In this document: one piece after another, positions 2,363 through 58,260 of the stretch | How the letters are laid out: every line of letters starts with the position of its first letter | Numbering within the stretch: position 1 is the stretch's first letter | Origin: a virus | Taxonomy: Duplodnaviria > Heunggongvirae > Uroviricota > Caudoviricetes | Length of the DNA: 64,000 nt | Strand: one strand, 5' to 3' | IMG/VR virus record: IMGVR_UViG_3300024268_000043 | Span: 13,665-77,664 of that record | Translations under genes and position numbers: made by a program | The notes under the pieces: generated by a model | Told to the model about the DNA's origin: nothing | Database searches by the model: none | What the model saw: the letters and a program-made list of their open reading frames with translations, nothing else

Positions 2363-2902
2363 CTACCTATCTGCTACAAAATATCCAAAGCAAGTGTAAT
2401 CAATCTGAGTATATGGCTTGTACCCTTCCCAATCAAAATGATGGCTGGTTCTAAAGTAAAGACAATACTCTGGTAGGGTTGAACCATTCTTTAACACATA
2501 ATCAACTGCCTCATAGTTGATTTCTGTTGGTGTTGTTTGATAAATTAAATTAGCAGGAGTAAATTGATAAGGTGCATACACAACCTTTAGTAGCGTCTGT
2601 CCCCATCTTCCATCTTGCCATCTGTTAATTACTACTGATGCCACGGCCATTTGACATTCAAGACTTTCCGTATTAGCTTCTAGATAAACCAATCTTGCTA
2701 GCATTTCTCTTTCCATTGATGTGATATTGTAGGCATATAGCGGTTCTTTTTCAACCTCAACGATTACTTCTTTTTCTACTTCTTTAATAACCTCTATCGT
2801 TTCAGCTTCTTTTGGTATGATTGCAATAATAATGCAAAGCAATACAATAATACTTATTAGTTTTATAATAATACAATAATAGGTTCGTTTTTGTTCTTCC
2901 AT
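2363..2902 (-). CDS. SleB/CwlJ-like cell-wall hydrolase with N-terminal TM anchor
   Basis: Hydrophobic N-terminus then a SleB-type Hydrolase_2 domain (MLARLVYLEA...VASVVINR...YAPYQF). Confidence 0.6.
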   Translation of the reverse strand: MEEQKRTYYCIIIKLISIIVLLCIIIAIIPKEAETIEVIKEVEKEVIVEVEKEPLYAYNITSMEREMLARLVYLEANTESLECQMAVASVVINRWQDGRWGQTLLKVVYAPYQFTPANLIYQTTPTEINYEAVDYVLKNGSTLPEYCLYFRTSHHFDWEGYKPYTQIDYTCFGYFVADR

Positions 2903-10636: not shown

Positions 10637-11437
10637 TTAAATAGTCTCCTTGTCTCCACTTCTTATTCCATATCGTTCGAACAGCTCTCGTTGTGGTGCA
10701 AAATCACCATAATACTTTGCTTCTGCATTTAGACGAGCCATTATTGCATCGTTCTTATCTACATATCGTCCCAGCCAATGTATCTGTTTATCAATATGAA
10801 TTGATGCTATCCAATTGTTATTACTCTTATCCCAATATACACCAGTAAACCCGCTTGTATTATCTTTTCTTTTTGTATGATTTCTTGCGTTTTCTGATTG
10901 TGTGGCTGGTCGCAAATTGTTCCTTCGGTTGTTTAACGTGTTCCTATCAATATGATCGCATAATTCATATCCAGTCAACACATACCACATCGAAACATAT
11001 CTTTTTTCGGTTTTATCCCACGCTTCAAGCATTCGATATCCATTTTGATGTATATGTTCATACCAACAATAGTTATCTATAAGAAGATCCTTATCTTCTT
11101 TGTCAAAATAGAATTCTGAATTAGTATTTAATGTTAATCCAACATAATATTCATCCTTTATATCTACCGGATTTGTTTTATTATTGTTTTTGCCTATATC
11201 TCTTGTTTTTTCTCTTCTAATACACCCACACGAATTTGTATGCCCGTTTCTTAAATGTTGACCCGTCGAAATCACATAATCAGAATTACCGCACGAACAT
11301 TTACACTTCCATTGCGGCGTGCGTGTTTGAGTATTTGGATTAATATAATCCTCCGCTCTCTCAACTATTGTCAATCTACTATTTGGAACTCCGTGTTCCG
11401 ACATAACCCAACCTGTCATATCTATGAACTTTCTCAT
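10637..11437 (-). CDS. HNH homing endonuclease with AP2 DNA-binding domain
   Basis: Cys cluster (CKCSCGN...CGC), HNH_3-like DHIDRN...N...NL, AP2-like C-terminus; paralog of 40685..41485; its stop overlaps the ligA start. Confidence 0.7.
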   Translation of the reverse strand: MRKFIDMTGWVMSEHGVPNSRLTIVERAEDYINPNTQTRTPQWKCKCSCGNSDYVISTGQHLRNGHTNSCGCIRREKTRDIGKNNNKTNPVDIKDEYYVGLTLNTNSEFYFDKEDKDLLIDNYCWYEHIHQNGYRMLEAWDKTEKRYVSMWYVLTGYELCDHIDRNTLNNRRNNLRPATQSENARNHTKRKDNTSGFTGVYWDKSNNNWIASIHIDKQIHWLGRYVDKNDAIMARLNAEAKYYGDFAPQRELFERYGIRSGDKETI

Positions 11438-13395
11438 TGTATTTCTCCAAGCATATTTAAAAATGTTAGTTCATCAATAATCGGCACATTCAGTTCTACT
11501 GCTTTCTTGTATTTACTACTACCGCTTGCTTCATTAGTGATAAGGTAGTCAGTGTTCTTACTAACTGAACCAGCAGACTTTGCACCGAGTTCTGCAATCT
11601 TTTCGTTGATACTATCTCTCGTGAAGTGATTGAGCTTGCCAGTCACGCAAAGCGTTTTGCCACTAAACGGATTATCCACCACTACCTTACTTTCACGCTT
11701 TACAAAACGCATCTCTGAAGCGAGAAGGTTAATCTCATCAAAATTATCAGTTAAGTACTTAGTGATATTTTGAGAGGTCTTATCTCCGATATCCTCTAAT
11801 TCGGACCAATCAAATCCACTATTAAAAGCACTAAGCAGTTTATCAAAATCACCTTCAAAAGCGTCAGAAATGGTCTTGGACGCAGACTTACCTACACCAT
11901 CAATTGAGAGAGCGCAAATAAAGTTTTCGAGCCTTACATCTCTACTGCTCTCAATTGCGTCAAGTATTTTTTCTACGGATTTTTCTCCGTATCCACTTGT
12001 AAGCTTCCATCTATAAACAACCCCTGGTGCAATTTCAAGTTTATATAAATCACAGAACGACTTAATCCAACCCTTGTCAATTAAAAACTCCAATGTTGCC
12101 TCACTCAATCCGTCAATGTTCATTGCGGGCTTGGATACAAAGAACTTCAATCTACCCAATAATTTGCCTGAACAGTTGGGATTTGTACACATCAATACTT
12201 CGGATGAATTCTCGGTCACTACTTCGGTTTCACCTCCGCAAACTGGGCAGTACTTAGGGATTTTTATATCAGAATCACCATCCTGAATGCGAGAATCTAT
12301 CTGCGGAATTATTTGGTTTGCTTTATATACTCTTACGGTGCAATTATTGGTGAGTCCCAACTTCTTGATAATAGAAATGTTATGAAGCGAGGCCTTACTG
12401 ACATCTGTTCCGTCAATGTTGACAGTTTCAAAAATTGCAGTAGGAGTAAGAGTATTGGTCTTGCCCATTGTCCATTCGATGTCAAGCAGCTTGGTCTCAT
12501 AGAGTTCGTCGTAGAACTTAAATGCGTAGGCTGCTCGGCTATGATGACCTGTTGTTCCAAGCGATTCTCCGTATGTAATATCGTTAAATCTACCAACTAA
12601 TCCGTCTATTGGATATCCATATACCTCAGCCTGTTCTACTAAAAACTCTTTTGCATCCCAATCAAAGCTGCTTGTCCAGGGTGTTACCGTAAAACCAAGA
12701 TTGTCCATTGCCACCAAATTATCAATTACTGTGTTGTGTGGGCCTTTAATAACGTTCCACAATACAAACTTAAGCTTACGATTGACACATTCTCGAGAAT
12801 CCAATAGCCTAATGGAACCCGATGCAAAATTGCGAGGATTCGCGTACTCTGTTTTAAACTCTTCAAAATCTGCTTTGGTGCAAATAATCTCTCCGTCTAC
12901 AATGAGCTCGTCTGTATAATTAATCTTTTTGGGAATGTTTTTTACAACCAAGGAATTATGCAGAATGTCTTCGCCTTCTTCTCCGTTACCACGAGTCTCA
13001 GCAGAGACAAGTTTACCGTCAACATATCGCAAGGAGCAGGTCAATCCATCGAGCTTGATCATTCCAACAACATCTTTGCTTCCAAAATATCGCACAAATT
13101 CATTCCAGTCCTTTGTCTTGTCAAGCGATAACATAGGGTGGTTGTGTTTAACCTTCTGCAACTCATTCACGACAGTATAGTTTACTTTCTGGGTGGGCGA
13201 GTTGGACAAAATGTATCCATAATTATGTTCAAGTGCCGCTAGTTCAAAATACATATCATCCCACTGCTTGTCGCTAATTTCTGGTATACCATTGTCGTAA
13301 AGTTCTGTGTGTCTGTTGAGTTCTGCGACCAAATACTCAATTCTTGCTTTTGCATCAAATGTCTCCATTTTCTCCTTAACCTCCGTTATACTCAC
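11434..13395 (-). CDS. ligA: NAD+-dependent DNA ligase
   Basis: 653 aa; adenylation motif MIKLDG (KxDG); zinc finger CPVCG...C; C-terminal HhH/BRCT-like region. Confidence 0.9.
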   Translation of the reverse strand: MSITEVKEKMETFDAKARIEYLVAELNRHTELYDNGIPEISDKQWDDMYFELAALEHNYGYILSNSPTQKVNYTVVNELQKVKHNHPMLSLDKTKDWNEFVRYFGSKDVVGMIKLDGLTCSLRYVDGKLVSAETRGNGEEGEDILHNSLVVKNIPKKINYTDELIVDGEIICTKADFEEFKTEYANPRNFASGSIRLLDSRECVNRKLKFVLWNVIKGPHNTVIDNLVAMDNLGFTVTPWTSSFDWDAKEFLVEQAEVYGYPIDGLVGRFNDITYGESLGTTGHHSRAAYAFKFYDELYETKLLDIEWTMGKTNTLTPTAIFETVNIDGTDVSKASLHNISIIKKLGLTNNCTVRVYKANQIIPQIDSRIQDGDSDIKIPKYCPVCGGETEVVTENSSEVLMCTNPNCSGKLLGRLKFFVSKPAMNIDGLSEATLEFLIDKGWIKSFCDLYKLEIAPGVVYRWKLTSGYGEKSVEKILDAIESSRDVRLENFICALSIDGVGKSASKTISDAFEGDFDKLLSAFNSGFDWSELEDIGDKTSQNITKYLTDNFDEINLLASEMRFVKRESKVVVDNPFSGKTLCVTGKLNHFTRDSINEKIAELGAKSAGSVSKNTDYLITNEASGSSKYKKAVELNVPIIDELTFLNMLGEIQ

Positions 13396-13849: not shown

Positions 13850-14874
13850 ACTTCACCTCTTACAATTCTTTCATTGACTGACATAACAAATTCGTTAATC
13901 TTCTTATAATCGGGTGTGCTAGGTAACTCGGTTGTTTCCTTTATCTTCTGCATCTCATTCTCAAAATAATCAACCATTTCCATAAATTCAGAGGTAGGTT
14001 GCTGATTATCATCGAGATACTTTCCGGCACGAATATCCATCAATAAGTCGTGGTCTTTCTCGCGATAGGTAATAATTTCACCGTCTTTCATAATGTCGAG
14101 ACACATAAGGTACAGTCTAATCAAGTGCATCATATGCTTTGCTATTTTACCGTGTTCAATTGCGTTTATATTTCTGTGTCCAATTTTGGAGTAATCTTTG
14201 ACGATGCTCTTCATAACATTCCACATACCCTTGTAGTCTCCCAAAGGGTAGTGATGTAAACTGATATCCATAAATATTTCTGTATCATATTCTGGCTTAC
14301 TGGATTTATCGATGTAGAGTTTGATGGAATCTTCGTCATACTCAAAGAAATCGTGCTTAAAATCATAAGCAGCATTTTTAATGCTATTAAGAATATACTG
14401 TGTCTGCTCTGCCTGGCTAACACTCTGTGCAGACTTTGAAGACAGTCTACGCAACTGCTGATTAGCATATCCGCCAAAAGAGTGGATGCACTTCTTAGAA
14501 AGGAAGAGATGACGGTTGTTTATGAGTTCCTGACCGATAGGTGAAAGGTAGAGATAGTGCTCGGCTTTTAGACCTAACAGCTCAATAACGTTTGGGTTAC
14601 AATTAGATAACAAGGAAATGATTTTATTAAACGCATAAATTGTAGTATCTGTTTCTTCATTTACAAATTGCTCGAAATTCTGATTGGTCAAAATTTCTAT
14701 TTTAGAATTTAATGCAATTCCTCTCCAATCCCAGTCGGATTCTTCATTGTCGGTGCCATAGCCTCTGCTTCCACCAAGACCTAATAAAATTATAGGTCTT
14801 TGAGTTTCAAAGTTTCTTATAAAATCATATTTTTCTTTCTTAAATTCATTTTTTAAATCTTTATTGGTCGTCAT
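13846..14874 (-). CDS. Pol-beta superfamily nucleotidyltransferase
   Basis: LGLGGSRGYG...DWDWRGI = GS...DxD nucleotidyltransferase motif. Confidence 0.5.
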   Translation of the reverse strand: MTTNKDLKNEFKKEKYDFIRNFETQRPIILLGLGGSRGYGTDNEESDWDWRGIALNSKIEILTNQNFEQFVNEETDTTIYAFNKIISLLSNCNPNVIELLGLKAEHYLYLSPIGQELINNRHLFLSKKCIHSFGGYANQQLRRLSSKSAQSVSQAEQTQYILNSIKNAAYDFKHDFFEYDEDSIKLYIDKSSKPEYDTEIFMDISLHHYPLGDYKGMWNVMKSIVKDYSKIGHRNINAIEHGKIAKHMMHLIRLYLMCLDIMKDGEIITYREKDHDLLMDIRAGKYLDDNQQPTSEFMEMVDYFENEMQKIKETTELPSTPDYKKINEFVMSVNERIVRGEV

Positions 14875-16025
14875 TATCTGTGTTCCCTCTTGTCTAAATT
14901 ACTTTTTCTCATATTAAAATGATTTCCGTCTATAAACGCAACACTTTGTCCATCTTTGGCATTCACGAGCAATCTGTTAAGATAAATACACTTTTTAGGT
15001 TTCCTAGTTCTAGAAATCACTCTACCATTTTCAATGTGCCATTTATATTTATTGACTATATCGATATCTTCTATATCAAAATATACATTACATTCTTTAA
15101 TTTTCAATATCGCTACATCTTGCAATATCGTTATATCATTTTCTTTTATTTTTTTAGACACGACAAATAAATCACTATAACATTTGCTACAATATATTCG
15201 TTTATCGATGTCATATATTTTATTTTTATAGCTAAGCGTTTTGAAACAATTACAACATGTCAATTGATTTGTTTCAATGTGCTCATTTGGATTAAAACTA
15301 TCACCCGACTTAATTGTTCTATCGTAAAGATTGATTTTAAGATTTTGATATGTCTTCCATTCGTCTGTACCTAGTTTATTAAATTTTTCATATTTTCTTT
15401 TCATAAAAATATTCGCATCTTGATACAGATATTCTCTGATTCGAATACATTGACGACACCCAGTAAAAGCCAATGTTGCTATTCTTTCATCTTTGCCTTT
15501 GTATGAAATTAATTTATTTTCATTTAACTCGCATTCCATGGCTATTACTTTATTGATGTCTGCAATAAATGGCCGATATCCTATAATTGAAAAGCATGTT
15601 TTATGATCACCGCTCTTTAATACCGATAAGCATATACTTCCATCTCCATCAAATACTCCACGAATAAAATGACGATATAATAATTTGGAGATGAAGTAAG
15701 GAAACGTGACTTGAAAAGTTTTCGCTTGCCCACAACCATGTTTCGCCAAACTGTCAGAAAGTTTTTTATTACTTACATATAACTCACAATAAGAGTAGTT
15801 ACCATTTCTGGTGCCATACCACAATGGTCGGTCTTGGTTTGGATATAATATATTTCTAAATTTTATTAAAAGCTCTTCGTCTTGTATGGAAAGTCTAATT
15901 TTAATTTCATGTTTTTTGACATTATTGTATCCGTCGGCATATAAAAATCCTAGAAAATATGCCTTTTCTTCTGTATCTATGTCATCAAAATAATCTTCAT
16001 TAATTTCCCATTTACATCTTGACAT
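14874..16025 (-). CDS. LAGLIDADG homing endonuclease (two motifs) with C-terminal HNH_3-like domain
   Basis: FLGFLYADGY and IRGVFDGDGSI motifs; C-terminal AFIDGNHFNMRKSNL. Start moved from 16043 to the internal Met (MSRCKW) because the track start codon is the CAT inside the conserved leader motif and GGAGGTGA RBS precedes the internal ATG. Confidence 0.65.
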   Translation of the reverse strand: MSRCKWEINEDYFDDIDTEEKAYFLGFLYADGYNNVKKHEIKIRLSIQDEELLIKFRNILYPNQDRPLWYGTRNGNYSYCELYVSNKKLSDSLAKHGCGQAKTFQVTFPYFISKLLYRHFIRGVFDGDGSICLSVLKSGDHKTCFSIIGYRPFIADINKVIAMECELNENKLISYKGKDERIATLAFTGCRQCIRIREYLYQDANIFMKRKYEKFNKLGTDEWKTYQNLKINLYDRTIKSGDSFNPNEHIETNQLTCCNCFKTLSYKNKIYDIDKRIYCSKCYSDLFVVSKKIKENDITILQDVAILKIKECNVYFDIEDIDIVNKYKWHIENGRVISRTRKPKKCIYLNRLLVNAKDGQSVAFIDGNHFNMRKSNLDKREHR

Positions 16026-16053
16026 ACCATCACCTCCAATCATTTTGTATGGT

Positions 16054-16926
16054 TTAATGTGCTGCCAAATCAGCTTCGTGTAATAAATCTACCTGCTTTT
16101 TAAGAAACGGAGGTAGATTGTTATAATATTTGGTGTTCATATAAGGGTCCATATGTGTACTAATAAGCCACGCGATATGTGGAGTAATATGCTCAAAACC
16201 ATAAGATAAGTAAGCCCCTACGCACTGATGCTGGTAAAAATGCGCGTGTTCACAAGGATTGCCTTTACTATCCACAAAAGCTTTAACATATGGTTTGCCT
16301 ATGTCATGCCACAATGCGGCCATACACACATCCGAGTCAGTAGAATGACAACATACTTCTTCATATGCTTCTTGACAATGATCATAAACACAAAGAGTAT
16401 GATGTGGATTATCGTGTGGGATGCACATAGCAAACGTTGTGGCGCCGTAATACTTGGTAGTGCTAAAATTTGTGGGTTTGATTATCTTAATCTCATCAAT
16501 ACCCTCATCATAATAAGGTGCCTGAAACCTCTTAAGCATTTTATCAATCACTTCCTTGCCAACAGTTCTATCCCTCATCTTGTCACGCTGAATGCATTCT
16601 TCGATAGGTGCCCAAATCACATAACATTCGATCTTAGCGAACTTTGGACAGACCCCAATAATACCCCATCTATCCTTGCGAGTTATATTTGTTGCATCAT
16701 AAATCACATCCTGTCCATTATTTAGAGCCTCAATTGCTCTCTTCTGCATCAAAGAAAACACATCAGCCGGATTGCCCTGTGTGGATTCGTCGCCATAGAG
16801 TTCGGCACGAATTGCATCAGAACTAAGATGAATTGTGTTGGGTTGAAGTGTAATATAATTTTTAGCATAGTGGGATTTGCCGGCGCCCGGAATTCCACAT
16901 AACAAAATTAACTTCGGTCTATTCAT
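16054..16926 (-). CDS. P-loop polynucleotide-kinase-like domain fused to HD phosphohydrolase domain (Pnkp-like RNA/DNA end-healing candidate)
   Basis: Walker A LLCGIPGAGKSHYA; C-terminal H...HD...H...D (LWHDIGKP...HAHFY...D) HD domain. Confidence 0.55.
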   Translation of the reverse strand: MNRPKLILLCGIPGAGKSHYAKNYITLQPNTIHLSSDAIRAELYGDESTQGNPADVFSLMQKRAIEALNNGQDVIYDATNITRKDRWGIIGVCPKFAKIECYVIWAPIEECIQRDKMRDRTVGKEVIDKMLKRFQAPYYDEGIDEIKIIKPTNFSTTKYYGATTFAMCIPHDNPHHTLCVYDHCQEAYEEVCCHSTDSDVCMAALWHDIGKPYVKAFVDSKGNPCEHAHFYQHQCVGAYLSYGFEHITPHIAWLISTHMDPYMNTKYYNNLPPFLKKQVDLLHEADLAAH

Positions 16927-17762
16927 TTGTTAATCTCCAATTCTTTTGTTATACCAATTTTAATAGTGTTATATGTTACTTCTTCAAAAAGTTTATATAT
17001 AGTTTCATCTACGGTATTATCGCAAGTCTTCAGATAACTCTCATACATCTCCTGAATAAAGTCCATTGAGCCTTTGCCATATCGTCTCGCATCCTCAAGA
17101 TTGTATTTGCCCTTCTTGACATCAACAAGCCACTCGGGTTCAACGGAGATTAAGCAACACTCGAAAGACTCTCCATTTATCCATCTATACATAAACTCTT
17201 TGATTCTAAAGAGATGGTGCAGTTGTTTGCAATCATAGCCCCATTTTTCAATGACATGCATTCTAGAGGGATACTTATGTTCGAGAGCATGATACTTCTC
17301 ACTTGCAATTCCTTTCATTGATTTAATAAGGGAAGGCAAATTCATTTTTACGATAGAATCTCTTGCCTTAACAAGCTTATTCCATTCCTCTTCATAGATA
17401 GGGTTGATAATATAATATTTCGTATAGAGAATTTCAAGGAAGTTGAGATTAGATTTTCTGAAGGTTTCCAACATCACTCTAATATCTTTAAAGTCAATGT
17501 GTTCATCATTCTCTCTTACATAGGTAGTGCTAGCCATCTTGCTTTCTGCAAGTTCTTTAAGAGACGGTGCCAATACGCATTTGGTATCAACGTCTGAGCC
17601 TTCATAATCGAGACAATAGTTGCCAGACCCTTGGTAGTACACACCTATAATTCTATGTTCAGGATACTGTGTGAGAGCATCGTTGTAATGCTCCCACATT
17701 TTATTCATTATCCATTCATCGGTATGAAAATTCATTTTACTCTCCTCAATTTCCAATCTCAA
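16923..17762 (-). CDS. Pol-beta superfamily nucleotidyltransferase (second copy)
   Basis: GVYYQGSGNY...DYEGSDVDTKCV = GS...DxD motif. Confidence 0.5.
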   Translation of the reverse strand: MRLEIEESKMNFHTDEWIMNKMWEHYNDALTQYPEHRIIGVYYQGSGNYCLDYEGSDVDTKCVLAPSLKELAESKMASTTYVRENDEHIDFKDIRVMLETFRKSNLNFLEILYTKYYIINPIYEEEWNKLVKARDSIVKMNLPSLIKSMKGIASEKYHALEHKYPSRMHVIEKWGYDCKQLHHLFRIKEFMYRWINGESFECCLISVEPEWLVDVKKGKYNLEDARRYGKGSMDFIQEMYESYLKTCDNTVDETIYKLFEEVTYNTIKIGITKELEINK

Positions 17763-18750
17763 TAAGATACTTAATTGTCATCTGCTCTTCCTTATAAACA
17801 ACAATTTCATCGTTTCTTAGCATACCTCTGTCGGCGTGTGCGTGTAGGCAATTTGCCCCAGACTTAAACTGCTGAAGTTTGTTATAATCAAGGTTATAGT
17901 ACTTGCTATCAAAATTGTACACGTCATAAGGCGTTCCATAGGCTACATCGAAAATTGCCATATAAGCAGTGTTGTTACCGCCGTGAGCCCAATAAGAACC
18001 AGAAAGTGAGGTATAACCAATGCTCTTTGCGCACTTGGGAGCATAATATACCCCGTATCCAAACATCTTTCCGGTGATGACGGCATTAGTAGGTCTAAGC
18101 ACCAAGCCGGTCTTCATAATGGACCAGAAGTTTTCCGATCTACTACCGTGGAACAGCAACCTCGTATCCTTAATACCATTCTCCTTAACAAACTTGTCGA
18201 AACGTTCTTGCGTCTTCAGATTGGTAACTCTCCAAGCCTTTCTAAACTTATCAGCAGAATCATTCATTAATGTTTTAATGAGTGCAACATCATCTCTAGT
18301 AGTCTCTTCCATTACAAGGCCGAGTTCCTCAAGAATAGTCTGTTGCTTCTTTTCGGTCATGACTGTGGGTTCAATCTCCGGCTTCACATAAATCTGTCCA
18401 CGCATTACATCAAGAAGATCCTGCTCTTTGGTGATGATTTTCGCAAAGTCATCGGGTTTATTTGCTAAGTAATCTCGCACATCGCCCATCTTTCGAGGAA
18501 TAACTGTAAACAACCTAAGCAGATTCGCGTTGAACTCATCAGTGGTAGAGCTATTATTGGCAAGTTCATCAATGATTTTCTGTGCCGCATCAACCATATC
18601 CTGGGTAACGGCAGATGCCTTGACTGTATAGTTCTTACGAATTGTATCACGAGCGAGACTCTGTAACTTTTCAACAATCAGTCTTACGGCTTCATTCTCA
18701 ATTTCTCTATAGGGACTTTCGGGATTGGTAGAGGAAATCTCCTCCACCAA
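17746..18750 (-). CDS. PARP-like ADP-ribosyltransferase catalytic domain protein
   Basis: LLFHGSRSENFWSIMKTGL...GKMFGYGVYYA...EIVVY reproduces the PARP H-G-S / Y / E signature blocks; helical regulatory-like N-terminal region; track start is a TTG. Confidence 0.7.
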   Translation of the reverse strand: MVEEISSTNPESPYREIENEAVRLIVEKLQSLARDTIRKNYTVKASAVTQDMVDAAQKIIDELANNSSTTDEFNANLLRLFTVIPRKMGDVRDYLANKPDDFAKIITKEQDLLDVMRGQIYVKPEIEPTVMTEKKQQTILEELGLVMEETTRDDVALIKTLMNDSADKFRKAWRVTNLKTQERFDKFVKENGIKDTRLLFHGSRSENFWSIMKTGLVLRPTNAVITGKMFGYGVYYAPKCAKSIGYTSLSGSYWAHGGNNTAYMAIFDVAYGTPYDVYNFDSKYYNLDYNKLQQFKSGANCLHAHADRGMLRNDEIVVYKEEQMTIKYLIEIGN

Positions 18751-18813
18751 ATCCTTCTTGAGGTCGGTTACATCCTGGTATCCCTTCTTTAACTTGCTAT
18801 TAATCTGCGAATT

Positions 18814-18963
18814 CTACTTAGACATAGGATAATACGCCGTCGTCTTGGTTGCGTCTACTCTACCATACTCAACACGGAACTGGTCGCCTTCTGGAAAACA
18901 GTTATAATATTTATTGTTATTTGCCGTTGTAACCATAATGAGATAAGTAGGTCTAACTTCCAT
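18814..18963 (-). CDS. WGR-like small ORF, in frame with the downstream PARP ORF and separated by one TAG
   Basis: 49 aa with KYYNCFPEGDQFRVEYGRVDA (WGR-domain-like); ATG start with upstream RBS; 21 sense codons connect its TAG to the PARP TTG start in the same frame. Confidence 0.4.
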   Translation of the reverse strand: MEVRPTYLIMVTTANNNKYYNCFPEGDQFRVEYGRVDATKTTAYYPMSK

Positions 18964-18975
18964 ATCTTTCTCCTA

Positions 18976-19401
18976 TCAAATCTCACAAATCAAAATCTCG
19001 ACATCCGTATTCTCAAATACATCACAGATGATATCGTAGACCTGTTCCCACGTTAATCTGTCAAGACCGCAACCTATCTTGGGCATTGCGAGTTTAGTAG
19101 TTGAGTTGAAATCCATTATATCTTTCATAGTTACAAGTGCTTCACGTACTGAATCATATGTCGGCTTATGATAACACTTATTCTTGGTTACAAGATTAAA
19201 AACATTATCAATCAAAAGCGCATCTCCGCCCACGTAAGAATACATATCATACTCTCTGAAGAGTTTAAATCTCATATTATAGATTTCATCAAATGTCTTT
19301 GCTATGCCAGCACCGAGTGCGAAGTCTGCGCTGATGCAATGTGCGAGGTAATAGCCCTGAGGCACCGTAAATAAATCTCTCTTTTCAATAGTAATAGTCA
19401 T
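18976..19401 (-). CDS. macro domain protein (second copy)
   Basis: YLAHCISADFALGAGIAKTF resembles the macro domain nucleotide-binding loop; 141 aa. Confidence 0.5.
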   Translation of the reverse strand: MTITIEKRDLFTVPQGYYLAHCISADFALGAGIAKTFDEIYNMRFKLFREYDMYSYVGGDALLIDNVFNLVTKNKCYHKPTYDSVREALVTMKDIMDFNSTTKLAMPKIGCGLDRLTWEQVYDIICDVFENTDVEILICEI

Positions 19402-19433
19402 AATTCAATCTCCTTTATATAAATAAATTTTCA

Positions 19434-20810
19434 TCATTCTGTATCGTTTTCAACCGACTCTGCTTCCTCGATATCAGGAGCCTCAGCCTCCACCTTAACA
19501 ATTCCTTCAAGGGCTTTAAAGAACCAATTCTTATGCTTATAAGCACAGAACTTAGGACGATTTATGATACGAACTACCACACCCTCGCGAATATGAGTCT
19601 TGCCTATAGGGTCGGGTCCATCATAGTACTTTTCTGCTCTTGCCATAACATACTCACCAGGTTTCTTATTCTTTGCTGGAATTGTAAACTTGTCAAACAC
19701 AGGCACACACTTAACACCCATCTGTTCACAACGATAACGCATAAAGTCAGGAGTGTATTCTACTATGAAGCCATCTTCGTTGGTCATAGTCATACGATAT
19801 ACATAGATGTCAGACTGAGGAAGAGTGTCTGCGAGTTGAAGCTCACCATTTTCATTGACATAATCGGCGGGTGTTTCATCCACACAAGGCACACATCCAT
19901 AAGAGAATACCGTTGTCTCTCCATACTTCTTTACAAAGTCCTTATCGTTGAGCTTCTTGTTATCACCGCTCGCCATAATAGGAGTACCAGTATGAGTGAA
20001 ACCAACTACTTCATAGAAAATTTCCTCGCCCTTATTTAACTTGCCCTCAAAGAACTTTGAATGTGCTTCACGGAATTCGTTACTTCCGTAATATCCACCT
20101 TCAAAATTCTCAAGCACTGTACGACGAGTGCCAGATACATAGCCCCAATCATAGATGGGCTTGCCTTCCTTGCGAGTGATTTTGTCCCATAGGGTTTTCT
20201 TGTAGCTCTTGAGTACGGGAAAATCGCCGGTTCTCTGACTCGTTCCGTGCATCTTGAGTGTAATCTCAATCTCGTCGCCAGGCTTAAAAGCAGCAAGATT
20301 ATACGCAAGTTGTTCGGTATCTGCGTGCTCCGCAAACAAGGGTGCTACAGGAACTTTCTTCTTGCGAGTCTTGTTGCCCTCTGAATAATGTCCTCTTCTA
20401 TTCTGGGTACGAGGTACATACTTACAGCAAATCTCATGTCCATTGAAGTTGTCAATTCTGTCACCCTCACGAAGAGTTGTAATATCTCCGAAAGACTCAA
20501 GTGACTTAAGGGGAAGAAAGAGTCCATCTGACTTCTCTCCACGCAGTTTGATAGCAGTCACATTTCTCTTGTCTGGGTCCATATAACCACCGATGTTATT
20601 GCCGTTCTCATCCTTCTTACGAAGCAGGTTGTTGGCCTCGGCAAACTCCACAGACAACTGCCCGTCTGAGGGGAAATATACGCCGAGCTGATTATCCTCG
20701 TATTCCATTGATACGATTACGGCATTTCCGAAGCACTCTCCAATCTGAAGTCTATCAGCATTAGGGTGCTTGTGCATATTCTTAATCCTTGTAATATAAG
20801 CGTTATACAT
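19434..20810 (-). CDS. RNA ligase (Rnl2-like nucleotidyltransferase) with N-terminal tRNA-binding OB domain
   Basis: N-terminus KHPNADRLQIGE = tRNA-binding (Myf/Trbp111-type) motif; ligase motif I LKMHGTS (KxHGT), III EEIFYEVVG, IV HIREGVVVR, V YKHKNWF. Confidence 0.7.
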   Translation of the reverse strand: MYNAYITRIKNMHKHPNADRLQIGECFGNAVIVSMEYEDNQLGVYFPSDGQLSVEFAEANNLLRKKDENGNNIGGYMDPDKRNVTAIKLRGEKSDGLFLPLKSLESFGDITTLREGDRIDNFNGHEICCKYVPRTQNRRGHYSEGNKTRKKKVPVAPLFAEHADTEQLAYNLAAFKPGDEIEITLKMHGTSQRTGDFPVLKSYKKTLWDKITRKEGKPIYDWGYVSGTRRTVLENFEGGYYGSNEFREAHSKFFEGKLNKGEEIFYEVVGFTHTGTPIMASGDNKKLNDKDFVKKYGETTVFSYGCVPCVDETPADYVNENGELQLADTLPQSDIYVYRMTMTNEDGFIVEYTPDFMRYRCEQMGVKCVPVFDKFTIPAKNKKPGEYVMARAEKYYDGPDPIGKTHIREGVVVRIINRPKFCAYKHKNWFFKALEGIVKVEAEAPDIEEAESVENDTE

Positions 20811-22598: not shown

Positions 22599-22718
22599 TC
22601 ACTTCCCTCCAATCATTTTGTTGTGTCTATATTATATATCCAAACTTCCTCAATGTCAATACATTTATGTAAATGTTTACATTTTATTAACAAATAAAGG
22701 CATAGCCAAAGCTACACC

Positions 22719-23540
22719 CTATAATTTCTTTGTGTAAGTTAAGCAGATCCATCCGGCACCACTCAACAATTTGCCCCAAACATCATTGCCAACAACCTTT
22801 TCTTCTATTATTGTATAAACTTCATTCATCTTGACAGTTGTTACAATATTATGATTTGTTCCAGCACCCTTTCTAACATTTAGCACATCAGTTGTCACTC
22901 TTACTAAATATCTTGCTTGCATACTTAAGAATGACTCTACTAACTTTCTAAAGTCGCCCATAGTCTTCCCGTGCTTCTTGAACCAATGTTCTGGATCTGC
23001 GTGATTAGATGCATAACCTTTTCTGTATGCCTCGCAGTGCCCTACAATTGTCGCTGGATGAAGATTGAACTGTTTGCAAAGCATAGCACAGTATTCGGCA
23101 GCAGTGCTAAATACGGCATTAAAATAAGCCTCATTTGTTAAATCATCCTCGCATAATTCAATCTGAATATGTCCAGTTGGATTGTAGTTGTAACTTCCGT
23201 GTTTTCCCCTACCACATCCCCAACAAGCGTAATTATAAGGTAGAATGTTTGCCACTCTTACCTTGTTATACTTATCGTAGCCAATGAAACTATGTACACA
23301 CTGCTCGCCAATTTTGTTTGATGGATTGTTCCAATGGTTGTTGTACCAATTCTTGCCGCATTCAGATGGACAATCTACGTATCTTTTTAAGTTTGGATTG
23401 TTTGCTCCAGTGCTATGTAATACAATTCCTACTGGAGTCATTGGTTGTTTAATAACATAACAATCATTTTTGGTAGCATAAGCTGTAATAATATTCATAA
23501 AAAAATCACTCCTCGTATAATCATCAATTCCATTATACAA
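22719..23540 (-). CDS. endolysin: N-acetylmuramoyl-L-alanine amidase (Amidase_2/PGRP) with C-terminal SH3b domain
   Basis: Amidase_2-like His/Cys zinc ligands (VLHSTG...H...C); C-terminal VRVTTDVLNVRKGAGTNH...WGKL SH3_3-like; own consensus promoter. Confidence 0.7.
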   Translation of the reverse strand: MYNGIDDYTRSDFFMNIITAYATKNDCYVIKQPMTPVGIVLHSTGANNPNLKRYVDCPSECGKNWYNNHWNNPSNKIGEQCVHSFIGYDKYNKVRVANILPYNYACWGCGRGKHGSYNYNPTGHIQIELCEDDLTNEAYFNAVFSTAAEYCAMLCKQFNLHPATIVGHCEAYRKGYASNHADPEHWFKKHGKTMGDFRKLVESFLSMQARYLVRVTTDVLNVRKGAGTNHNIVTTVKMNEVYTIIEEKVVGNDVWGKLLSGAGWICLTYTKKL

Positions 23541-24339: not shown

Positions 24340-24590
24340 GGCAGTGTGCTACCACTACACTACCGGGCCAATGCATATACATCAACCCAGACCGGAATCG
24401 AACCGGTGTTACTGCCTGTGGTGCCCCGAGCGGGAATTGAACCCGCGACCCACAGATTATGGTGGTTGAAGCAAGCTTCGAACTTGCGTCCCTCCCCTGC
24501 CTTCTCGGCTACCAGGGAGACTCTATCCAGTTGAGTTATTCAACCAAAGTCTGTTGCTCTACCATCTGAGCTACCGGAGCATATATTAAA
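24340..24590 (-). other. cluster of tRNA-like fragments / irregular tRNA-like elements (possible pseudo-tRNAs)
   Basis: Several canonical 5' halves (acceptor + D-arm: GGCCCGGTAGTGTAGTGGTAGCAC; GCTCCGGTAGCTCAGATGGTAGAGC) and 3' halves (T-arm + acceptor + CCA) whose acceptor strands do not pair with one another; one 91-nt element (GGTTGAA...TTCAACCACCA) has a matching acceptor but a 28-nt anticodon region. Confidence 0.35.
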
Positions 24591-25649: not shown

Positions 25650-27265
25650 CATATTAAATGCAGCCTTACCCTAACTGCCACTGGTAATCGTTATCCCAAC
25701 CTTCTTTCGAAGTTGCCAGTCCCTTCAAGTGTTTGCTTTACCATCAACCGCAGATTCCATCACACTCGGCCCTTCAATCAGATGCACAATGATAAAGCGA
25801 TGATTTGCAAATCATTTTTGCCCTTGTCGGGCTAAACTTGTGGCTGGACTTACACCTCTACAAGATGCCCTTCCACTACGCATATAAACCCCTCACTTTC
25901 TTTGATGGTGGAGGAAACCACATTTTGTAGTCAATTCACAAAATGGCTTTACCGAGTTTCACGGTCTTTTTAGATGAAGCGTCCTGCAGTCGTTACCTGC
26001 CACTTGGAGTCCCTTCAACCTGTCAATAGGATATTCGTATCATTCGGATTTCCCGACTTTTTTCGAATAGTAGTATGTTATAACTACACGCCATTACTAA
26101 GCCTTTCGATGCTTCCCGAGTACAGCCCAGCGAAGACGCACTCGTTATGAATTTGAAGACCTCATCCGTATCGTGTTTGCAACCACTACACAGGAAAAAC
26201 TAATATCGTACTCATTATTTCAGAGCATTGATATTCTCAAAAGCCTTAGCCTTCTCGACTTTTATCCCACATGTGCTACCACCTTGTTTTATGACTACAA
26301 GGAAAACAATAATATGACTGGCTCACCCGCAAAAACAGTCTGGATAAAATGCTCTCTGGTGATGATTGTAGCTCCACCTAAACTCCACAGTCTTTCACTT
26401 TATCACTATGCCCTTCACTACAAATCGGCGGGTTTTTAAAACGGAAACGCCATTGCTGACGAAACCTCAACTCAACCCACACTACTACAAGCCTAATCAC
26501 TTGGCGCGAATTGAAGCCCTCAGTGAGTTTACACTTACATTGCCACGCGAGAAAGGATGGGTGAGTAATGGTAGTTTTCTTTCGGCTTTCACCTATCGTA
26601 GAATTGGCTCACTATCAACCGTTTGTGCTTCTCCCTAACCCCTTCACTCCCTACGCCGAGCAAAGGTCTTCATCGGATTCGATACCGCCTCAAGAATGCG
26701 ATAACATGGACCGGTCTACCAGTCGTGCAGATTTGCTCCCATTCACCAGAGAAGACTTCTCCCTTTTTCTGTTGTGTAACCAACGCTCCGTCCCTTACAT
26801 ACGGAATTAAAGAGGGTGAATTGTGATACTTACCTACCCGCAGGATAATGTAAGTTGTTCGTTAATCCTTGCAGTAGAAACCCCTCAACATTCATTGAGT
26901 ACCGATTTACCACATACCTACTTCTACTGGATTGGATCAACCTTTAAATCACTCGCTTGATTAGGTGCAAGCGAACACCAATTATGGCAGGTTGACAACC
27001 TCTCTGCCACGAGGTTTACTTAGTTAGGTGGAGTTTCCTCCGCAATAAAATTAATCATAATTCAATCTCCTTTCCTAAGTAGATTTGCAAGCCTACGCAC
27101 ATCCTCGCTTGCCTTCTATCCTACCGAGCCTCAGTTTACTGCAGACACCGAGGTGATCCTGTGCGTTTCCGACGGTTAAGGATAACCGCTTTGTCACCGT
27201 TTGTCTTACACGGGCAGAAATTTGTCCGAGAATACCAATATCAGTTTAAAATATGTAGTCCAGAA
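25650..27265 (-). ncRNA. about 1.6 kb ORF-free, GC-enriched region: candidate large structured non-coding RNA (GOLLD/ROOL-like, or an ORF-less intron)
   Basis: No ORF above 90 aa on either strand in an otherwise gene-dense genome; GC content visibly higher than flanking coding DNA; embedded in the tRNA/Y-RNA array, the typical neighbourhood of phage-borne giant ornate RNAs. Confidence 0.4.
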
Positions 27266-27269
27266 CCAA

Positions 27270-28095
27270 ATGTACTATGAAGTAACTGATAAAACCGCAT
27301 CGGAACAATATTATATTTTCGAGGATATTTTATAGAGTAAACAAATATGCATAATATAAGGGAGTTATATAATTCAAACTTATCATTAATTTCTATGAAG
27401 TAACTCTATAATCTGCATCGAAAATAGTTTTTTCATTTGAATTTACGAGAATAAATGTAACAGTACATTATAACGTTGCGCTACCAACTGCGCCACCTCC
27501 CGTTATAGTCGGGAGGGTAGGACTCGAACCTACGACACACGGCACCCAAAGCAAGAAGTAACTGTTACGACTGCATCGTAAATATGGTATAAGAATTATG
27601 AGAATAACTAGATTAGTAATTTTAGCGCTCTACCTGCTGAGCTACAACCCAATTGGGTAGGTTGGATTCGAACCAACGACCTCTCGGTTAACAGCCGAAG
27701 TAACTAATCTAACTGCATCATAATTAATATCTGTGTAATTTGTGAGAATATCGACAATAGTATAAAGGCACCTTTGCCTATAACAAATGGACGTTATAAA
27801 AAGAATTGAACTTTTCGAAGTAACTATCATCACTGCATCACAAATAGTTTATGCTATTAAATTTCTGAGAGTATCGAAATGAGTTTATGTAAACTAATTG
27901 GAAGTTAGTAGGTATTTTGATTAGAAGTCAAAGCCTGAAGTAACTCATTTCACTGCATCAGAAATGTAGTCCAAGGAAGAAATGCTTGAGAAAAACGACA
28001 ATGCTAAAGTACGGACTCGAACCGCTATATCAGTTTTCAAGACTAATTTTCAACCAGATGAAGTAAGCATTAATCACTGCATCAAGCATTTATAT
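27270..28095 (-). ncRNA. tandem array of about 7 Y-RNA-like (YrlA-like) tRNA-mimic modules immediately upstream of the Ro60/Rsr gene
   Basis: Seven copies of a conserved 23-nt element (minus strand GATGCAG-N7/8-AGTTACTTC) at 119-158 nt spacing. Modules at about 27440-27578 and 27580-27722 carry a canonical T-arm (GTAGGTTCGAGTCCTAC; GTTGGTTCGAATCCAAC) and D-arm (GCGCAGTTGGTAGCGC; GCTCAGCAGGTAGAGC) in which the acceptor 3' strand is joined directly to its complementary 5' strand (CCTCCCG-ACTATAA-CGGGAGG; CTACCCA-AT-TGGGTTG), while sequences flanking the module are mutually complementary. This is the topology described for bacterial Y RNAs: tRNA-like domain closed at the acceptor, long Ro-binding stem formed by the ends. 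Confidence 0.55.
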
Positions 28096-28100: not shown

Positions 28101-29753
28101 TTAATTATTTGAATCAATTGCGTTCCACTGGTCAATCATCGCCTTAGCGAATACGGCTTCTTTACCAGTCCATCCGTACATTATGTTGGTACGATACGCA
28201 TATTCGGGTAGAACCGCGTTGTCATAACCTGCAGTCTGCACAGAGAACACATTCACTTTAGGATTAACCTTCTTACGGTACTCCTGTACGAGCTTGAACA
28301 CATTGATATAAGAGCCATCTACAAACCAACCACGTCCACAGCCATATCCACGATTCTGATATTCCGTCTTATGTCTGTCGGTGCCATAGAGACCACCGTG
28401 ACCAGCCTGCTGATCGGAATAAATAAAGATATTATCCCAGTGTTCCTTGTTGGCAATGGCGTCTCTGAAGAACTCCCAAATACCACCCTCGGTAGCACCA
28501 CCTACATCACTATATCTATTTCTGGTAATCTCCTGTGCCTGAGAGAGAACGCCCTTACGCTTACTGATAGGACTTACGATAAGCTTGTCGCCAAACTTGC
28601 CTACATATCCTTCGTCAGAACAAGCAGCAGTAATTACAGAAGAAAGATTATCAATGTCTGCCACAGTAACAGTGCCATACTCAGAATTAAGAGCACCCCA
28701 AGCCGAACCAGAATTATCTGACAAGCACATAGTCTTGCCGGAAAGCTTAGGATAATTTTCAAGTGAAATATCCATGCACTCCTCAAGAGCATCAATAATT
28801 AAAGGCTGATGATTGCATTTGCTCGTTCTAATAGCTTGAATAGCAGAGTAATAACGGAACGGAAACTGCTTGCCGTCAACTACACCACTCTTAAGCTTCT
28901 CAAGATACTTCTTGCAAAACTCACTATCCTCTATTTCGGTAAACACTCCTCTGATGTTGCGGAGAAGTGCCATATGACCCATATCAACGGTGTCGAAAAT
29001 TTCCTTCCAAGACTTGCCCTCGGAACGAAGGTTTTCCCAAGTCTTCTCGTCTTCTTTAACTTCGACGGTGCCGGTAGTCATAAGTTCATCAATAACCTTA
29101 GAGTTAGCGTGGCAGAGACGAACTCCGTTAATCATACCAATCTCGTGATTCTTATACTTAGCAACCTTATAACGAGAGAGTTTACTAAGGTTCTTTGCCC
29201 AAGAACGCTTGATAATAGAAGGGATGTTGTTCTTCTTACCCTTATTAAGATACAGATAATAAGCCATCTGAGACATAGGTTCATCTGCTCTCTTCATAAC
29301 TTGCTGATTATACTCATCAAATTTACCAGGATTATCGTCGGTCCATTCTTTACGCTTAGGATGAGTAGCAGCTCTTACCATAATAACCTGAGGGTTAAGT
29401 CTCATCATATAGTCACTACGAAGAGTCGTTGCCCACTCAAGAGTTGCACCAAAATCATAATCAAGTGCCGCGTCGATGGATTCTTCCATAATAGTTTCAG
29501 TATCTTTGCCTTCATAACACTTAGGAATAACACTAAACTCTTTAACAAGGGCATCAACAACATATGCCTTTCTCGACTTAGATCCTCTGTAATACGACGG
29601 CTCTCCAAAGATTGAAGACGCACTAATCATCTTAAGAGTATCAAGAGGATTAATCTTATAGGAATCTCCTCCCATAAAGTTAGTGACCGTTTCGTCAAGT
29701 CTAAGATTGTTTCTCTGATTCATTTCAGAGACTGCTTTAGAAATCTTGCTCAT
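28101..29753 (-). CDS. rsr: Ro60/TROVE-domain protein (Rsr-like) with C-terminal vWA domain
   Basis: 550 aa, the size of bacterial Rsr; C-terminal vWA MIDAS motif CLSDNSGSAWG (DxSGS); adjacent to the tRNA-like Y-RNA-like array, as in bacterial rsr-yrl loci. Confidence 0.55.
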   Translation of the reverse strand: MSKISKAVSEMNQRNNLRLDETVTNFMGGDSYKINPLDTLKMISASSIFGEPSYYRGSKSRKAYVVDALVKEFSVIPKCYEGKDTETIMEESIDAALDYDFGATLEWATTLRSDYMMRLNPQVIMVRAATHPKRKEWTDDNPGKFDEYNQQVMKRADEPMSQMAYYLYLNKGKKNNIPSIIKRSWAKNLSKLSRYKVAKYKNHEIGMINGVRLCHANSKVIDELMTTGTVEVKEDEKTWENLRSEGKSWKEIFDTVDMGHMALLRNIRGVFTEIEDSEFCKKYLEKLKSGVVDGKQFPFRYYSAIQAIRTSKCNHQPLIIDALEECMDISLENYPKLSGKTMCLSDNSGSAWGALNSEYGTVTVADIDNLSSVITAACSDEGYVGKFGDKLIVSPISKRKGVLSQAQEITRNRYSDVGGATEGGIWEFFRDAIANKEHWDNIFIYSDQQAGHGGLYGTDRHKTEYQNRGYGCGRGWFVDGSYINVFKLVQEYRKKVNPKVNVFSVQTAGYDNAVLPEYAYRTNIMYGWTGKEAVFAKAMIDQWNAIDSNN

Positions 29754-58248: not shown

Positions 58249-58260
58249 ACTAATCCTCTT

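What the first reader, a model, noticed from the sequence alone, without database searches (positions are those of the whole stretch)
17746..18963. PARP-family catalytic domain in a phage, with an in-frame upstream WGR-like ORF separated by a single TAG
ORF 17746..18750 contains the PARP H-G-S ... Y ... E signature (LLFHGSRSENFWSIMKTGL; GKMFGYGVYYA; NDEIVVY). This is the eukaryote-type H-Y-E ADP-ribosyltransferase fold rather than the T4 Alt/Mod type. The ORF immediately upstream (18814..18963, ATG start) contains a WGR-like block (YYNCFPEGDQFRVEYGRVDA) and is in the same reading frame. Only one TAG codon interrupts it, followed by 21 sense codons before the annotated TTG start. This could be two genes (WGR protein plus catalytic protein), a recent nonsense mutation, or programmed TAG read-through or suppression. 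The phage carries a large tRNA set, but TAG is clearly a genuine stop in other genes such as 2363..2902.
Basis: partly seen in the sequence, partly recalled or inferred. Interest (0 to 1): 0.8.

Follow-up and report, generated by a model that had tools for sequence, protein, structure and literature searches.

The report
Phage PARP gene broken by amber mutation
The two in-frame ORFs are one phage gene for a PARP-type ADP-ribosyltransferase, of a kind already known in phages and bacteria, that a single G-to-A change has cut with a stop codon in this one strain; this is an ordinary loss-of-function allele, not recoding.

Summary
On the minus strand, 18814..18963 and 17746..18750 are in one frame, separated by one TAG (18814..18816).

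They are not two genes. Together they form one 405-codon gene with three domains: WGR, helical domain and PARP catalytic domain (H272, Y306, E386). The TAG replaces Trp50 inside the WGR domain. That position is W in 134 of 135 aligned relatives. All 25 related IMG/VR loci and all 120 best database hits are uninterrupted 398-408-residue ORFs.

The invariant WGR residues K57, K60, G61 and Y62 lie in the 21 codons between the TAG and the TTG start, which neither ORF translates.

The TAG allele is real. It occurs in assemblies from five samples or runs that are identical or nearly identical to the window, so it marks one clonal strain.

TAG ends other genes normally. No tRNA with a CUA anticodon was found in the window plus 10 kb.

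The most likely reading is a recent nonsense mutation. At best, weak reinitiation at GTG 18747 yields a fragment without the WGR domain.

The gene is always paired with an upstream homologue of TARG1, an enzyme that removes ADP-ribose.

PARPs of this architecture are already annotated in cultured phages, so novelty is low.

The parts
17746..18963 (-). Whole PARP gene (405 codons plus TGA), interrupted at codon 50. It is the orthologue of intact 405-408-residue proteins.
   Evidence: The best hit is 97% identical over 100% of the length. PHROG 23333 matches residues 7-403, E 4e-65.
18814..18816 (-). TAG nonsense codon at position 50. Relatives carry TGG (Trp) here.
   Evidence: the window reads AAGTAGAAT where L033 reads AAGTGGAAT (L001: AAGTGGGAA). 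W in 134 of 135 sequences.
18817..18963 (-). Translated 49-residue N-terminal stub: the four beta strands of the WGR domain, including Y33-G34-R35.
   Evidence: The ATG is preceded by AGGAGA; anti-SD duplex -9.4 kcal/mol.
18751..18813 (-). Codons 51-71: the rest of the WGR domain (helix 47-59, K57, K60-G61-Y62). Neither ORF translates this stretch.
18769..18948 (-). WGR domain (residues 6-65), cut in two by the TAG.
   Evidence: Pfam PF05406 hits 12 of 12 family N-termini, best E 1.7e-8. The window lineage scores 15.6 bits, residues 11-65. An N-terminal profile against PDB hits only PARP2/PARP3 WGR domains. AF2 pLDDT is 85-95 over this stretch.
18244..18714 (-). Helical (regulatory-like) domain, residues ~84-240.
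   Evidence: A PDB profile match runs through the helical domain of PARP1/PARP2. The AF2 model is helical from residue 84 to 239, with one short beta strand at 216-220. Foldseek matches WGR-CAT chains.
17749..18243 (-). ADP-ribosyltransferase (PARP catalytic) domain, residues 241-405: H272 (18148..18150), Y306 (18046..18048), E386 (17806..17808).
   Evidence: Pfam PF00644, E 6e-23. The triad is invariant in 135 of 135 sequences.
18745..18747 (-). GTG (codon 73), the only plausible reinitiation start. It would give a 333-residue fragment with the helical and catalytic domains.
   Evidence: Gene callers chose it. Its anti-SD duplex is -6.4 kcal/mol against a median of -9.1 for 80 genes.
18976..19401 (-). 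TARG1/OARD1-like macrodomain (141 residues), 12 nt upstream. It is the conserved partner, a putative ADP-ribose eraser, and is intact.
   Evidence: Profile against PDB 4j5r, E 3.7e-34. It is present upstream of the PARP in 24 of 24 loci with upstream DNA.

Best explanation
Window 17746..18963 (minus strand) is a single gene for a phage PARP-family ADP-ribosyltransferase. Its architecture is WGR domain, helical domain and catalytic domain, the same as the core of human PARP1/2/3 and of bacterial PARPs. In this strain a single G-to-A transition turned the conserved Trp50 codon (TGG) into TAG. Translation from ATG 18963 therefore ends after 49 residues, in the middle of the WGR fold, and the full-length enzyme is not made. 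At most, a 333-residue fragment holding the helical and catalytic domains is produced by weak reinitiation at GTG 18747. By analogy with PARP1-3, such a fragment would lack break-dependent activation (inferred). In intact relatives the enzyme is most likely switched on when the WGR domain binds a nucleic-acid break. It would then transfer ADP-ribose from NAD+ to protein or nucleic-acid ends, and the adjacent TARG1-like macrodomain would remove the mark (inferred from homology and conserved gene pairing; not shown). The mutation looks recent, and the strain persists without the intact enzyme.
For: Sequence and frame.

Orthologues are single ORFs. The 120 best hits are 398-408 residues with 98-100% coverage. 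All 11 inspected carry W at position 50. 25 of 25 IMG/VR loci have no internal stop. W50 is W in 134 of 135 sequences and F in one.

DNA level: the window has TAG where the two compared relatives (L033, L001) have TGG.

The TAG lies inside the WGR domain. Pfam WGR hits 12 of 12 N-termini, and the match spans residues 11-65. PDB hits with the N-terminal profile are all PARP2/3 WGR domains. The AF2 model (pLDDT 84, pTM 0.80) places W50 in helix 47-59. Foldseek's top hits are the WGR-CAT chains of PARP1 and PARP2, E 1e-19.

The allele is real and clonal. L002 (20,426 nt), L005 (6,150 nt), L003 and L004 are 100% identical to the window, and L006 differs at 2 sites. All carry the TAG. The exact 333-residue product is on 22 contigs.

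The mutation is recent. Against the closest intact gene there are 106 synonymous and 10 missense codon differences. Changes specific to the window are about 22 synonymous, 3 missense and the stop, no worse than sister lineages.

There is no recoding. Stop usage is TAA 65, TGA 29, TAG 11. Other TAG-ended genes meet another stop within 1-13 codons or the next gene's SD and ATG. No CUA tRNA was found.
Against: The TAG allele appears fixed in a strain assembled from many samples, so the loss is at least tolerated. That alone does not exclude low-level read-through.

Only 74 kb of the ~170-kb genome could be scanned for a suppressor tRNA, and the host is unknown.

The absence of extra missense changes fits a recent mutation, but it equally fits continued selection on a read-through product. 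The branch is too short to tell these apart.

No expression or activity data exist for this protein or any close relative.
Confidence: 0.8

Rival explanations
1. The truncated allele is still functional. Ribosomes reinitiate at GTG 18747 and make a 333-residue helical-plus-catalytic fragment that works as a WGR-independent ADP-ribosyltransferase, so the strain keeps a deregulated or basal version of the activity.
For: GTG 18747 sits just after the WGR/linker boundary and has a partial SD (AAGGA, -6.4 kcal/mol). Gene callers pick it. The downstream 333 codons carry no further damage. Some bacterial PARPs consist of the catalytic domain alone (PMC4245714).
Against: The start is a non-ATG codon, its SD is weaker than that of about 75% of the window's genes, and it lies 63 nt downstream of the stop. 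In PARP1-3 the helical domain is autoinhibitory and needs the WGR domain for release (established knowledge; PMC5966428 makes the same argument for bacterial PARPs). All 120 + 119 + 25 relatives examined keep the WGR domain, which argues that it is needed.
Confidence: 0.12
2. The TAG is read through, either by a phage- or host-encoded amber suppressor or pyrrolysine tRNA or by near-cognate decoding, so that full-length PARP is made at a low and possibly regulated level.
For: The allele is fixed in a widely sampled strain. Both sides of the TAG are undamaged. The phage encodes its own tRNAs, including Gln(UUG) and Trp(CCA).
Against: No tRNA with a CUA anticodon was found in the window or in 10 kb beyond it. 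The odd tRNA with an 89-nt insert cannot yield CUA. TAG ends at least six other genes, each followed at once by a back-up stop or by the next gene's start. This is the only in-frame TAG inside a conserved gene among 105 ORFs. Relatives have TGG and the same downstream protein sequence, so no dedicated read-through signal has evolved.
Confidence: 0.05
3. These are two real genes: a small WGR protein and a separate catalytic protein that work together.
For: Each ORF has a possible start codon, and the upstream one has a strong SD.
Against: The 49-residue product ends before the WGR helix. Residues 50-72, which include invariant K57, K60, G61 and Y62, belong to neither ORF, so the two products cannot rebuild the domain. 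No relative is split.
Confidence: 0.02
4. The TAG is a sequencing or assembly error.
For: It is a single-base difference from the consensus of the family.
Against: The same base is present in assemblies from JGI 3300024270, JGI 3300028242, ENA ERZ27248306 and Logan SRR7031455 and SRR7032241. Some of these may be re-assemblies of overlapping read sets, but at least two different runs and two JGI samples are involved.
Confidence: 0.02

Closest known systems
Human PARP1/PARP2/PARP3 core (WGR, helical domain, ART)
   Same: The three-domain order and fold are the same. Foldseek's top hits are the PARP1 and PARP2 WGR-CAT chains, E 1e-19, TM up to 0.67. The H-Y-E triad and the residues equivalent to K903, S904 and Y907 are conserved.
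   Different: Sequence identity is only ~17%. There are no zinc fingers, BRCT domain or N-terminal extension. The WGR domain is minimal (~60 residues) with YGR instead of WGR. Pfam PARP_reg is not detected. Targets, and whether it makes poly- or mono-ADP-ribose, are unknown. In this window the gene is cut at codon 50.
Bacterial PARPs (Herpetosiphon aurantiacus PARP; Clostridioides difficile CD160 CdPARP)
   Same: They share the WGR-(helical)-PARP_cat architecture. They also share the 'YGR' variant and the three conserved WGR patches described for bacterial PARPs, N..KYY, YGRxG and K..KGY (PMC5966428; compare).
   Different: This gene is phage-borne, shorter, and strictly paired with a TARG1-like macrodomain. 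No direct sequence comparison with those two proteins was made here.
Annotated phage PARPs: Cellulophaga phage phi4:1/phi17:2, Xanthomonas phage XacN1, Klebsiella phage vB_KpM_FBKp34; PHROG 23333; Aeromonas phage Aeh1 (PMC4245714)
   Same: The homology is full length: residues 7-403, 24-33% identity, annotated 'poly (ADP-ribose) polymerase'. PHROG 23333 matches at E 4e-65.
   Different: No cultured phage exceeds 38% identity. This clade belongs to ~160-175-kb uncultured phages whose DnaE polymerase is closest to those of Clostridioides and Bacillus phages.
Human TARG1/OARD1 (C6orf130), for the neighbouring gene
   Same: The match is E 3.7e-34 over the whole domain. The catalytic Lys (K84 in TARG1, K73 here) and Asp (D125 in TARG1, D114 here) are conserved in most family members (the TARG1 numbering is from my own knowledge).
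   Different: It is a stand-alone 141-residue phage protein with unknown substrates. A few distant members lack the Asp.

Membership tests
PARP / ARTD family (H-Y-E ADP-ribosyltransferases) | PARP catalytic domain (Pfam PF00644) above the gathering score | tested here: met
   82 bits against a cut-off of 26.7, E 6e-23, residues 241-403.
PARP / ARTD family (H-Y-E ADP-ribosyltransferases) | Catalytic triad His-Tyr-Glu | tested here: met
   H272, Y306 and E386 are present in the window and invariant in 135 of 135 relatives. They align to PARP1 H862, Y896 and E988 (PARP1 numbering is from my own knowledge).
DNA-break-activated PARPs (PARP1-3 and bacterial PARP type: WGR, helical domain, ART) | N-terminal WGR domain | tested here: met
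   PF05406 hits 12 of 12 family N-termini, best E 1.7e-8. The window-lineage sequence alone scores 15.6 bits, below the cut-off of 22. PF05406 is precomputed on relatives about 48% identical to this protein. The N-terminal profile hits only PARP2/3 WGR domains in PDB. The fold is confirmed.
DNA-break-activated PARPs (PARP1-3 and bacterial PARP type: WGR, helical domain, ART) | Helical regulatory domain between the WGR and ART domains | tested here: met
   The profile match to PARP1/2 runs through the helical domain. The model is helical over residues 84-239 (one short strand, 216-220) and superposes on WGR-CAT chains. Pfam PARP_reg itself gave no hit, as reported for most bacterial PARPs (PMC5966428).
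DNA-break-activated PARPs (PARP1-3 and bacterial PARP type: WGR, helical domain, ART) | Uninterrupted reading frame that encodes all three domains in one chain | tested here: not met
   TAG at codon 50 in the window. The feature is met in all relatives examined.
DNA-break-activated PARPs (PARP1-3 and bacterial PARP type: WGR, helical domain, ART) | NAD+-dependent ADP-ribosylation stimulated by nucleic-acid breaks | not testable with these tools
   This needs biochemistry on an intact orthologue.
TARG1/OARD1-type macrodomain (neighbour 18976..19401) | Macrodomain homologous to TARG1, with the catalytic Lys and Asp | tested here: met
   E 3.7e-34 against 4j5r. K73 and D114 are present. Pfam Macro alone is weak: E 0.0075, 16.6 bits, below the cut-off of 22.
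Stop-codon-recoded (TAG-reassigned) phages | Many in-frame TAGs inside conserved genes | tested here: not met
   Only one case among 105 ORFs. Read-through of other TAG-ended genes meets another stop within 1-13 codons, or a separate SD and ATG.
Stop-codon-recoded (TAG-reassigned) phages | Phage-encoded suppressor tRNA with a CUA anticodon | tested here: not met
   None found by ARAGORN or Rfam in the 64-kb window or the 10 kb beyond its end. About 96 kb of the genome was not available.
Programmed stop-codon read-through | Stop codon and its context conserved among relatives | tested here: not met
   Relatives carry TGG or an aromatic codon at this position.

The most novel reading that the evidence does not exclude
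The amber codon is not a dead end. It would be partly suppressed, by a host or phage suppressor tRNA outside the sequence seen here or by near-cognate decoding, so that this strain makes small amounts of full-length PARP. That would make it a natural 'leaky' allele that throttles an NAD+-consuming enzyme. A weaker version is that the WGR-less fragment made from GTG 18747 is a functional, break-independent transferase.
Probability: 0.06. Interest if true: 0.5.

Novelty: new member of a known kind. Interest (0 to 1): 0.22.

Why it matters
For genome annotation, the two ORFs should be merged and flagged as one disrupted gene. The 49-residue ORF should not be called a 'WGR protein'.

The case also shows that public protein sets hold an artefact. 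On short contigs a gene caller read straight through this TAG.

Biologically, the nonsense allele shows that a large gut-type phage can spread without its intact PARP. In nearly all relatives the PARP is under strong purifying selection and is strictly paired with a TARG1-like eraser. That conserved writer-eraser pair sits among RNA-repair, tRNA, Ro/Y-RNA and NAD-salvage genes. It is abundant in metagenomes (more than 4,500 homologues), and I found no functional study of a phage PARP in the two literature searches made here. The pair, rather than the stop codon, is the part worth an experiment.

Tried and rejected
- **Nucleotide search of cultured phages.** A megablast of 17000..20000 against the cultured and GenBank phage collection found nothing. 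The phage has no close cultured relative.
- **Pfam on the fusion and on the 49-residue ORF alone.** Neither gave a WGR hit at E <= 1. The domain appeared only when N-termini of relatives were scanned.
- **First AlphaFold run.** With 22 near-identical sequences it gave pLDDT 42, with only the WGR part confident. I repeated it with 135 more diverse sequences.
- **Exact-pattern scans of the JGI metagenome collection.** I searched for the TAG or TGG allele in this strain's background, and for TAG alleles in any background. Both scans returned nothing. That collection evidently does not hold these contigs. A control in IMG/VR found four loci; all four are contigs already seen with TGG.
- **Extending the tRNA scan upstream of the window.** This failed because the first gene's product is not on record with my choice of start codon.
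- **Genome-wide recoding.** Rejected on stop-codon usage and read-through extensions.
- **The tRNA with an 89-nt insert as a hidden suppressor.** Rejected, because no choice of splice points gives a CUA anticodon.
Full report
**Observation**

- An ATG ORF, preceded by AGGAGA, runs 18963..18814 and ends in TAG (18816..18814).
- 21 sense codons follow the TAG. Then the TTG (18750) or GTG (18747) ORF runs to TGA at 17746..17748.
- The stretch 17746..18963 is 406 codons in one frame with that single internal stop.
- Pfam finds the PARP catalytic domain at 82 bits against a cut-off of 26.7, E 6e-23.
- The triad is present: H272 (18148..18150), Y306 (18046..18048) and E386 (17806..17808).

**One gene or two**

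Searching the conceptual fusion returned more than 4,500 homologues. The best 120 are all 398-408 residues, 88-97% identical, and cover 98-100% of the query. JGI already labels many of them 'poly [ADP-ribose] polymerase'.
- All 11 sequences I read have Trp where the window has TAG.
- All 25 related loci in IMG/VR encode one uninterrupted ORF, down to 48% identity, with W or F at that position.
- In a 135-sequence alignment the position is W 134 times and F once.
- At DNA level the window reads AAG TAG AAT where the closest relative reads AAG TGG AAT, a single G-to-A transition.

**The TAG lies inside a domain**

The N-terminal ~65 residues are a WGR domain.
- Pfam WGR (PF05406) matches all 12 family N-termini scanned, best E 1.7e-8. 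The window-lineage sequence matches weakly (15.6 bits, residues 11-65).
- A profile of the N-terminus hits only WGR domains of PARP3 and PARP2 in the PDB.
- Relatives about 48% identical to this protein carry a precomputed PF05406 label.
- The conserved patches N15/N17/K18/Y20, Y33-G34-R35 and K57/K60-G61-Y62 match the three patches and the 'YGR' variant described for bacterial PARPs (PMC5966428).
- An AlphaFold model built on 135 sequences (pLDDT 84, pTM 0.80) shows four strands (6-46), a helix (47-59) that holds W50, a helical domain and the ART fold.
- Foldseek's best matches are the WGR-CAT chains of human PARP1 (4dqy_C, 7s6m) and PARP2 (7aeo, 6x0l), E 1e-19. A sequence profile also aligns through the helical domain of PARP1/2.

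So the 49-residue ORF is about two-thirds of a WGR domain. Residues 50-72, with four invariant residues, lie in the 'spacer' and are translated by neither ORF. The 'WGR protein plus catalytic protein' reading fails for this reason.

**Is the TAG real**

Loci fetched through the neighbouring gene and through the 49-residue ORF come from JGI 3300024270, JGI 3300028242, ENA ERZ27248306, and Logan SRR7031455 and SRR7032241.
- Four are 100% identical to the window (20,426, 6,150, 1,365 and 1,341 nt). One differs at 2 of 1,408 sites. All carry the TAG.
- The exact 333-residue downstream product is recorded on 22 contigs, the longest about 170.1 kb.

It is therefore a true allele of one clonal ~170-kb phage strain that has been sampled repeatedly. 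One short contig counted with the 49-residue ORF (L007) is a different relative, cut off just as a TGG begins. It is not a TAG allele.

**Age and selection**

Against the closest intact gene (P0001, on L033) there are 106 synonymous and 10 missense codon differences, so the family is under strong purifying selection.

Changes specific to the window lineage are about 22 synonymous, 3 missense and the stop. This ratio is no worse than in sister lineages. There is no sign of decay. That fits a recent mutation, but it cannot by itself exclude continued selection on a read-through product.

**Recoding and suppression**

- A rough gene map gives stops TAA 65, TGA 29 and TAG 11.
- Every other TAG-ended gene on the coding strand is followed within 1-13 codons by another stop, or at once by the next gene's SD and ATG.
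- The PARP TAG alone opens onto 355 further sense codons.
- ARAGORN and Rfam find 8-9 tRNAs, none with a CUA anticodon. The 10 kb beyond the window's end has no tRNA.
- An unusual tRNA with an 89-nt insert in its anticodon loop cannot give CUA at any splice point.
- Because relatives have TGG, no read-through signal can have been selected at this site.

About 96 kb of the genome could not be inspected.

**What may still be made**

GTG 18747 (codon 73) lies just past the WGR domain. It has a partial SD with a duplex energy of -6.4 kcal/mol. The median for 80 genes is -9.1, and the true PARP start scores -9.4. Weak reinitiation could give a fragment with the helical and catalytic domains. In PARP1-3 such a fragment is autoinhibited without the WGR domain (established knowledge; PMC5966428 argues the same for bacterial PARPs).

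**Context and likely function of the intact gene**

The gene 12 nt upstream (18976..19401) is a clear TARG1/OARD1 homologue, E 3.7e-34, with the catalytic Lys and Asp. It precedes the PARP in all 24 related loci that have upstream DNA, while the other neighbours vary. The pair looks like an ADP-ribose writer and eraser.

Around it lie several related genes:
- an RNA ligase (19434..20810);
- a polynucleotide-kinase/HD protein (16054..16926);
- two nucleotidyltransferases, one of them RlaP-like;
- an NAD-dependent DNA ligase (11434..13395);
- a nicotinate phosphoribosyltransferase (33569..34798).

A perfect TTGACA-17-TATAAT promoter at 22659..22631 heads the gene block.

The DnaE-type polymerase is closest to one in an uncultured phage from human faeces (49%), then to those of Clostridioides (42%) and Bacillus (36%) phages. 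The genes use strong SD sites. Both point to a Bacillota host, probably gut-associated (inference).

The likely mechanism in intact relatives is as follows. The WGR domain senses a nucleic-acid break and releases the helical domain. ADP-ribose is then transferred from NAD+, and the TARG1-like enzyme removes it. Only the architecture and the conserved gene pairing are shown; the rest is inferred.

**Comparison with what is known**

PARP genes in phages were already reported for Aeromonas phage Aeh1 and Cellulophaga phage phi4:1 (PMC4245714). Here tblastn finds full-length homologues annotated as PARP in Cellulophaga, Xanthomonas and Klebsiella phages, and unannotated ones in Stenotrophomonas phages, at 24-33% identity. 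PHROG 23333 covers the whole protein. Bacterial PARPs with WGR, helical and catalytic domains are described in the literature (PMC8120803, PMC5966428).

**Verdict**

The window holds a new, and here broken, member of a known kind. The stop codon is an ordinary nonsense mutation.

Noticed in passing
window 24422..24580 (minus strand): A tRNA gene with an 89-nt insertion in the anticodon loop. Rfam tRNA scores 51.9 bits over the full model. ARAGORN instead calls a 100-nt 'tRNA-Ser(cga)' at 24419..24518. The insert has a closing stem (GGTTGAA...TTCAACC) and a T-arm-like hairpin, and it is too short for a group I intron. The anticodon is ambiguous (UUG, CAU or UUU).
   Followed up: partly
window 27279..28083 (minus strand) and gene 28101..29753: Seven copies of a 23-24-nt box (GATGCAG N8-9 GTTACTTC), 118-158 nt apart, separate RNA-like units. 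At least two units are circularly arranged tRNA mimics: T-arm, an acceptor stem closed by a loop, then D-arm. They give sub-threshold Rfam YrlA (Y RNA-like) hits at 37 bits (gathering score 69). The 550-residue gene just upstream has a TROVE (Ro60/Rsr) domain, E 3e-5. Phage Ro60 with YrlA RNAs is a known kind (PMC4201824), but such an array of boxed units may be worth a look.
   Followed up: partly
L003 793..1365 and L004 769..1341 (= window 18963..18391): On these short Logan contigs the public gene call runs straight through the TAG, giving a 191-residue product. The caller evidently chose a TAG-sense code, so public protein sets contain an artefactual 'fused' version of this broken gene.
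   Followed up: yes
window 14874..16043 (minus strand): A 389-residue homing-endonuclease-like gene (PHROG endonuclease, E 9e-47; faint LAGLIDADG hit) sits between the PNK/HD gene and the RlaP-like nucleotidyltransferase. It is absent at that place in relatives L001 and L033, so it is probably a strain-specific mobile insertion.
   Followed up: partly
window 33569..34798 (minus strand): A phage-encoded nicotinate phosphoribosyltransferase (Pfam NAPRTase, E 9e-67), an NAD+ salvage enzyme. The same genome holds an NAD+-consuming PARP and an NAD-dependent DNA ligase.
   Followed up: no
window 22631..22720 (minus strand): A terminator-like hairpin (22720..22697) lies right after the TAG-ended endolysin gene. 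It is followed by a perfect TTGACA-17-TATAAT promoter (22659..22631) that probably drives the block containing the RNA ligase, the macrodomain gene and the PARP.
   Followed up: no
window 58057..58500 (minus strand): A second pair of ORFs lies in the same frame across a TAG (58261..58500, then 58057..58248, with 4 codons between). Here the downstream ORF has its own AAGAGGA SD and ATG, so this is probably two genes in the same frame by chance.
   Followed up: partly
L034 4916..6178 (about 3.8-5.1 kb beyond the window's high end, same contig): A 420-residue reverse transcriptase gene (Pfam RVT_1, precomputed) in the same phage genome. Its type (retron, DGR or group II intron) was not examined.
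   Followed up: no
window 30304..30586 and 26036..26149 (minus strand): Two sub-threshold Rfam hits. One is a group I intron (27 bits, gathering score 50) that overlaps the 3' end of an HNH endonuclease gene (30493..31173). The other is RAGATH-33 (45.5 bits, gathering score 120).
   Followed up: no
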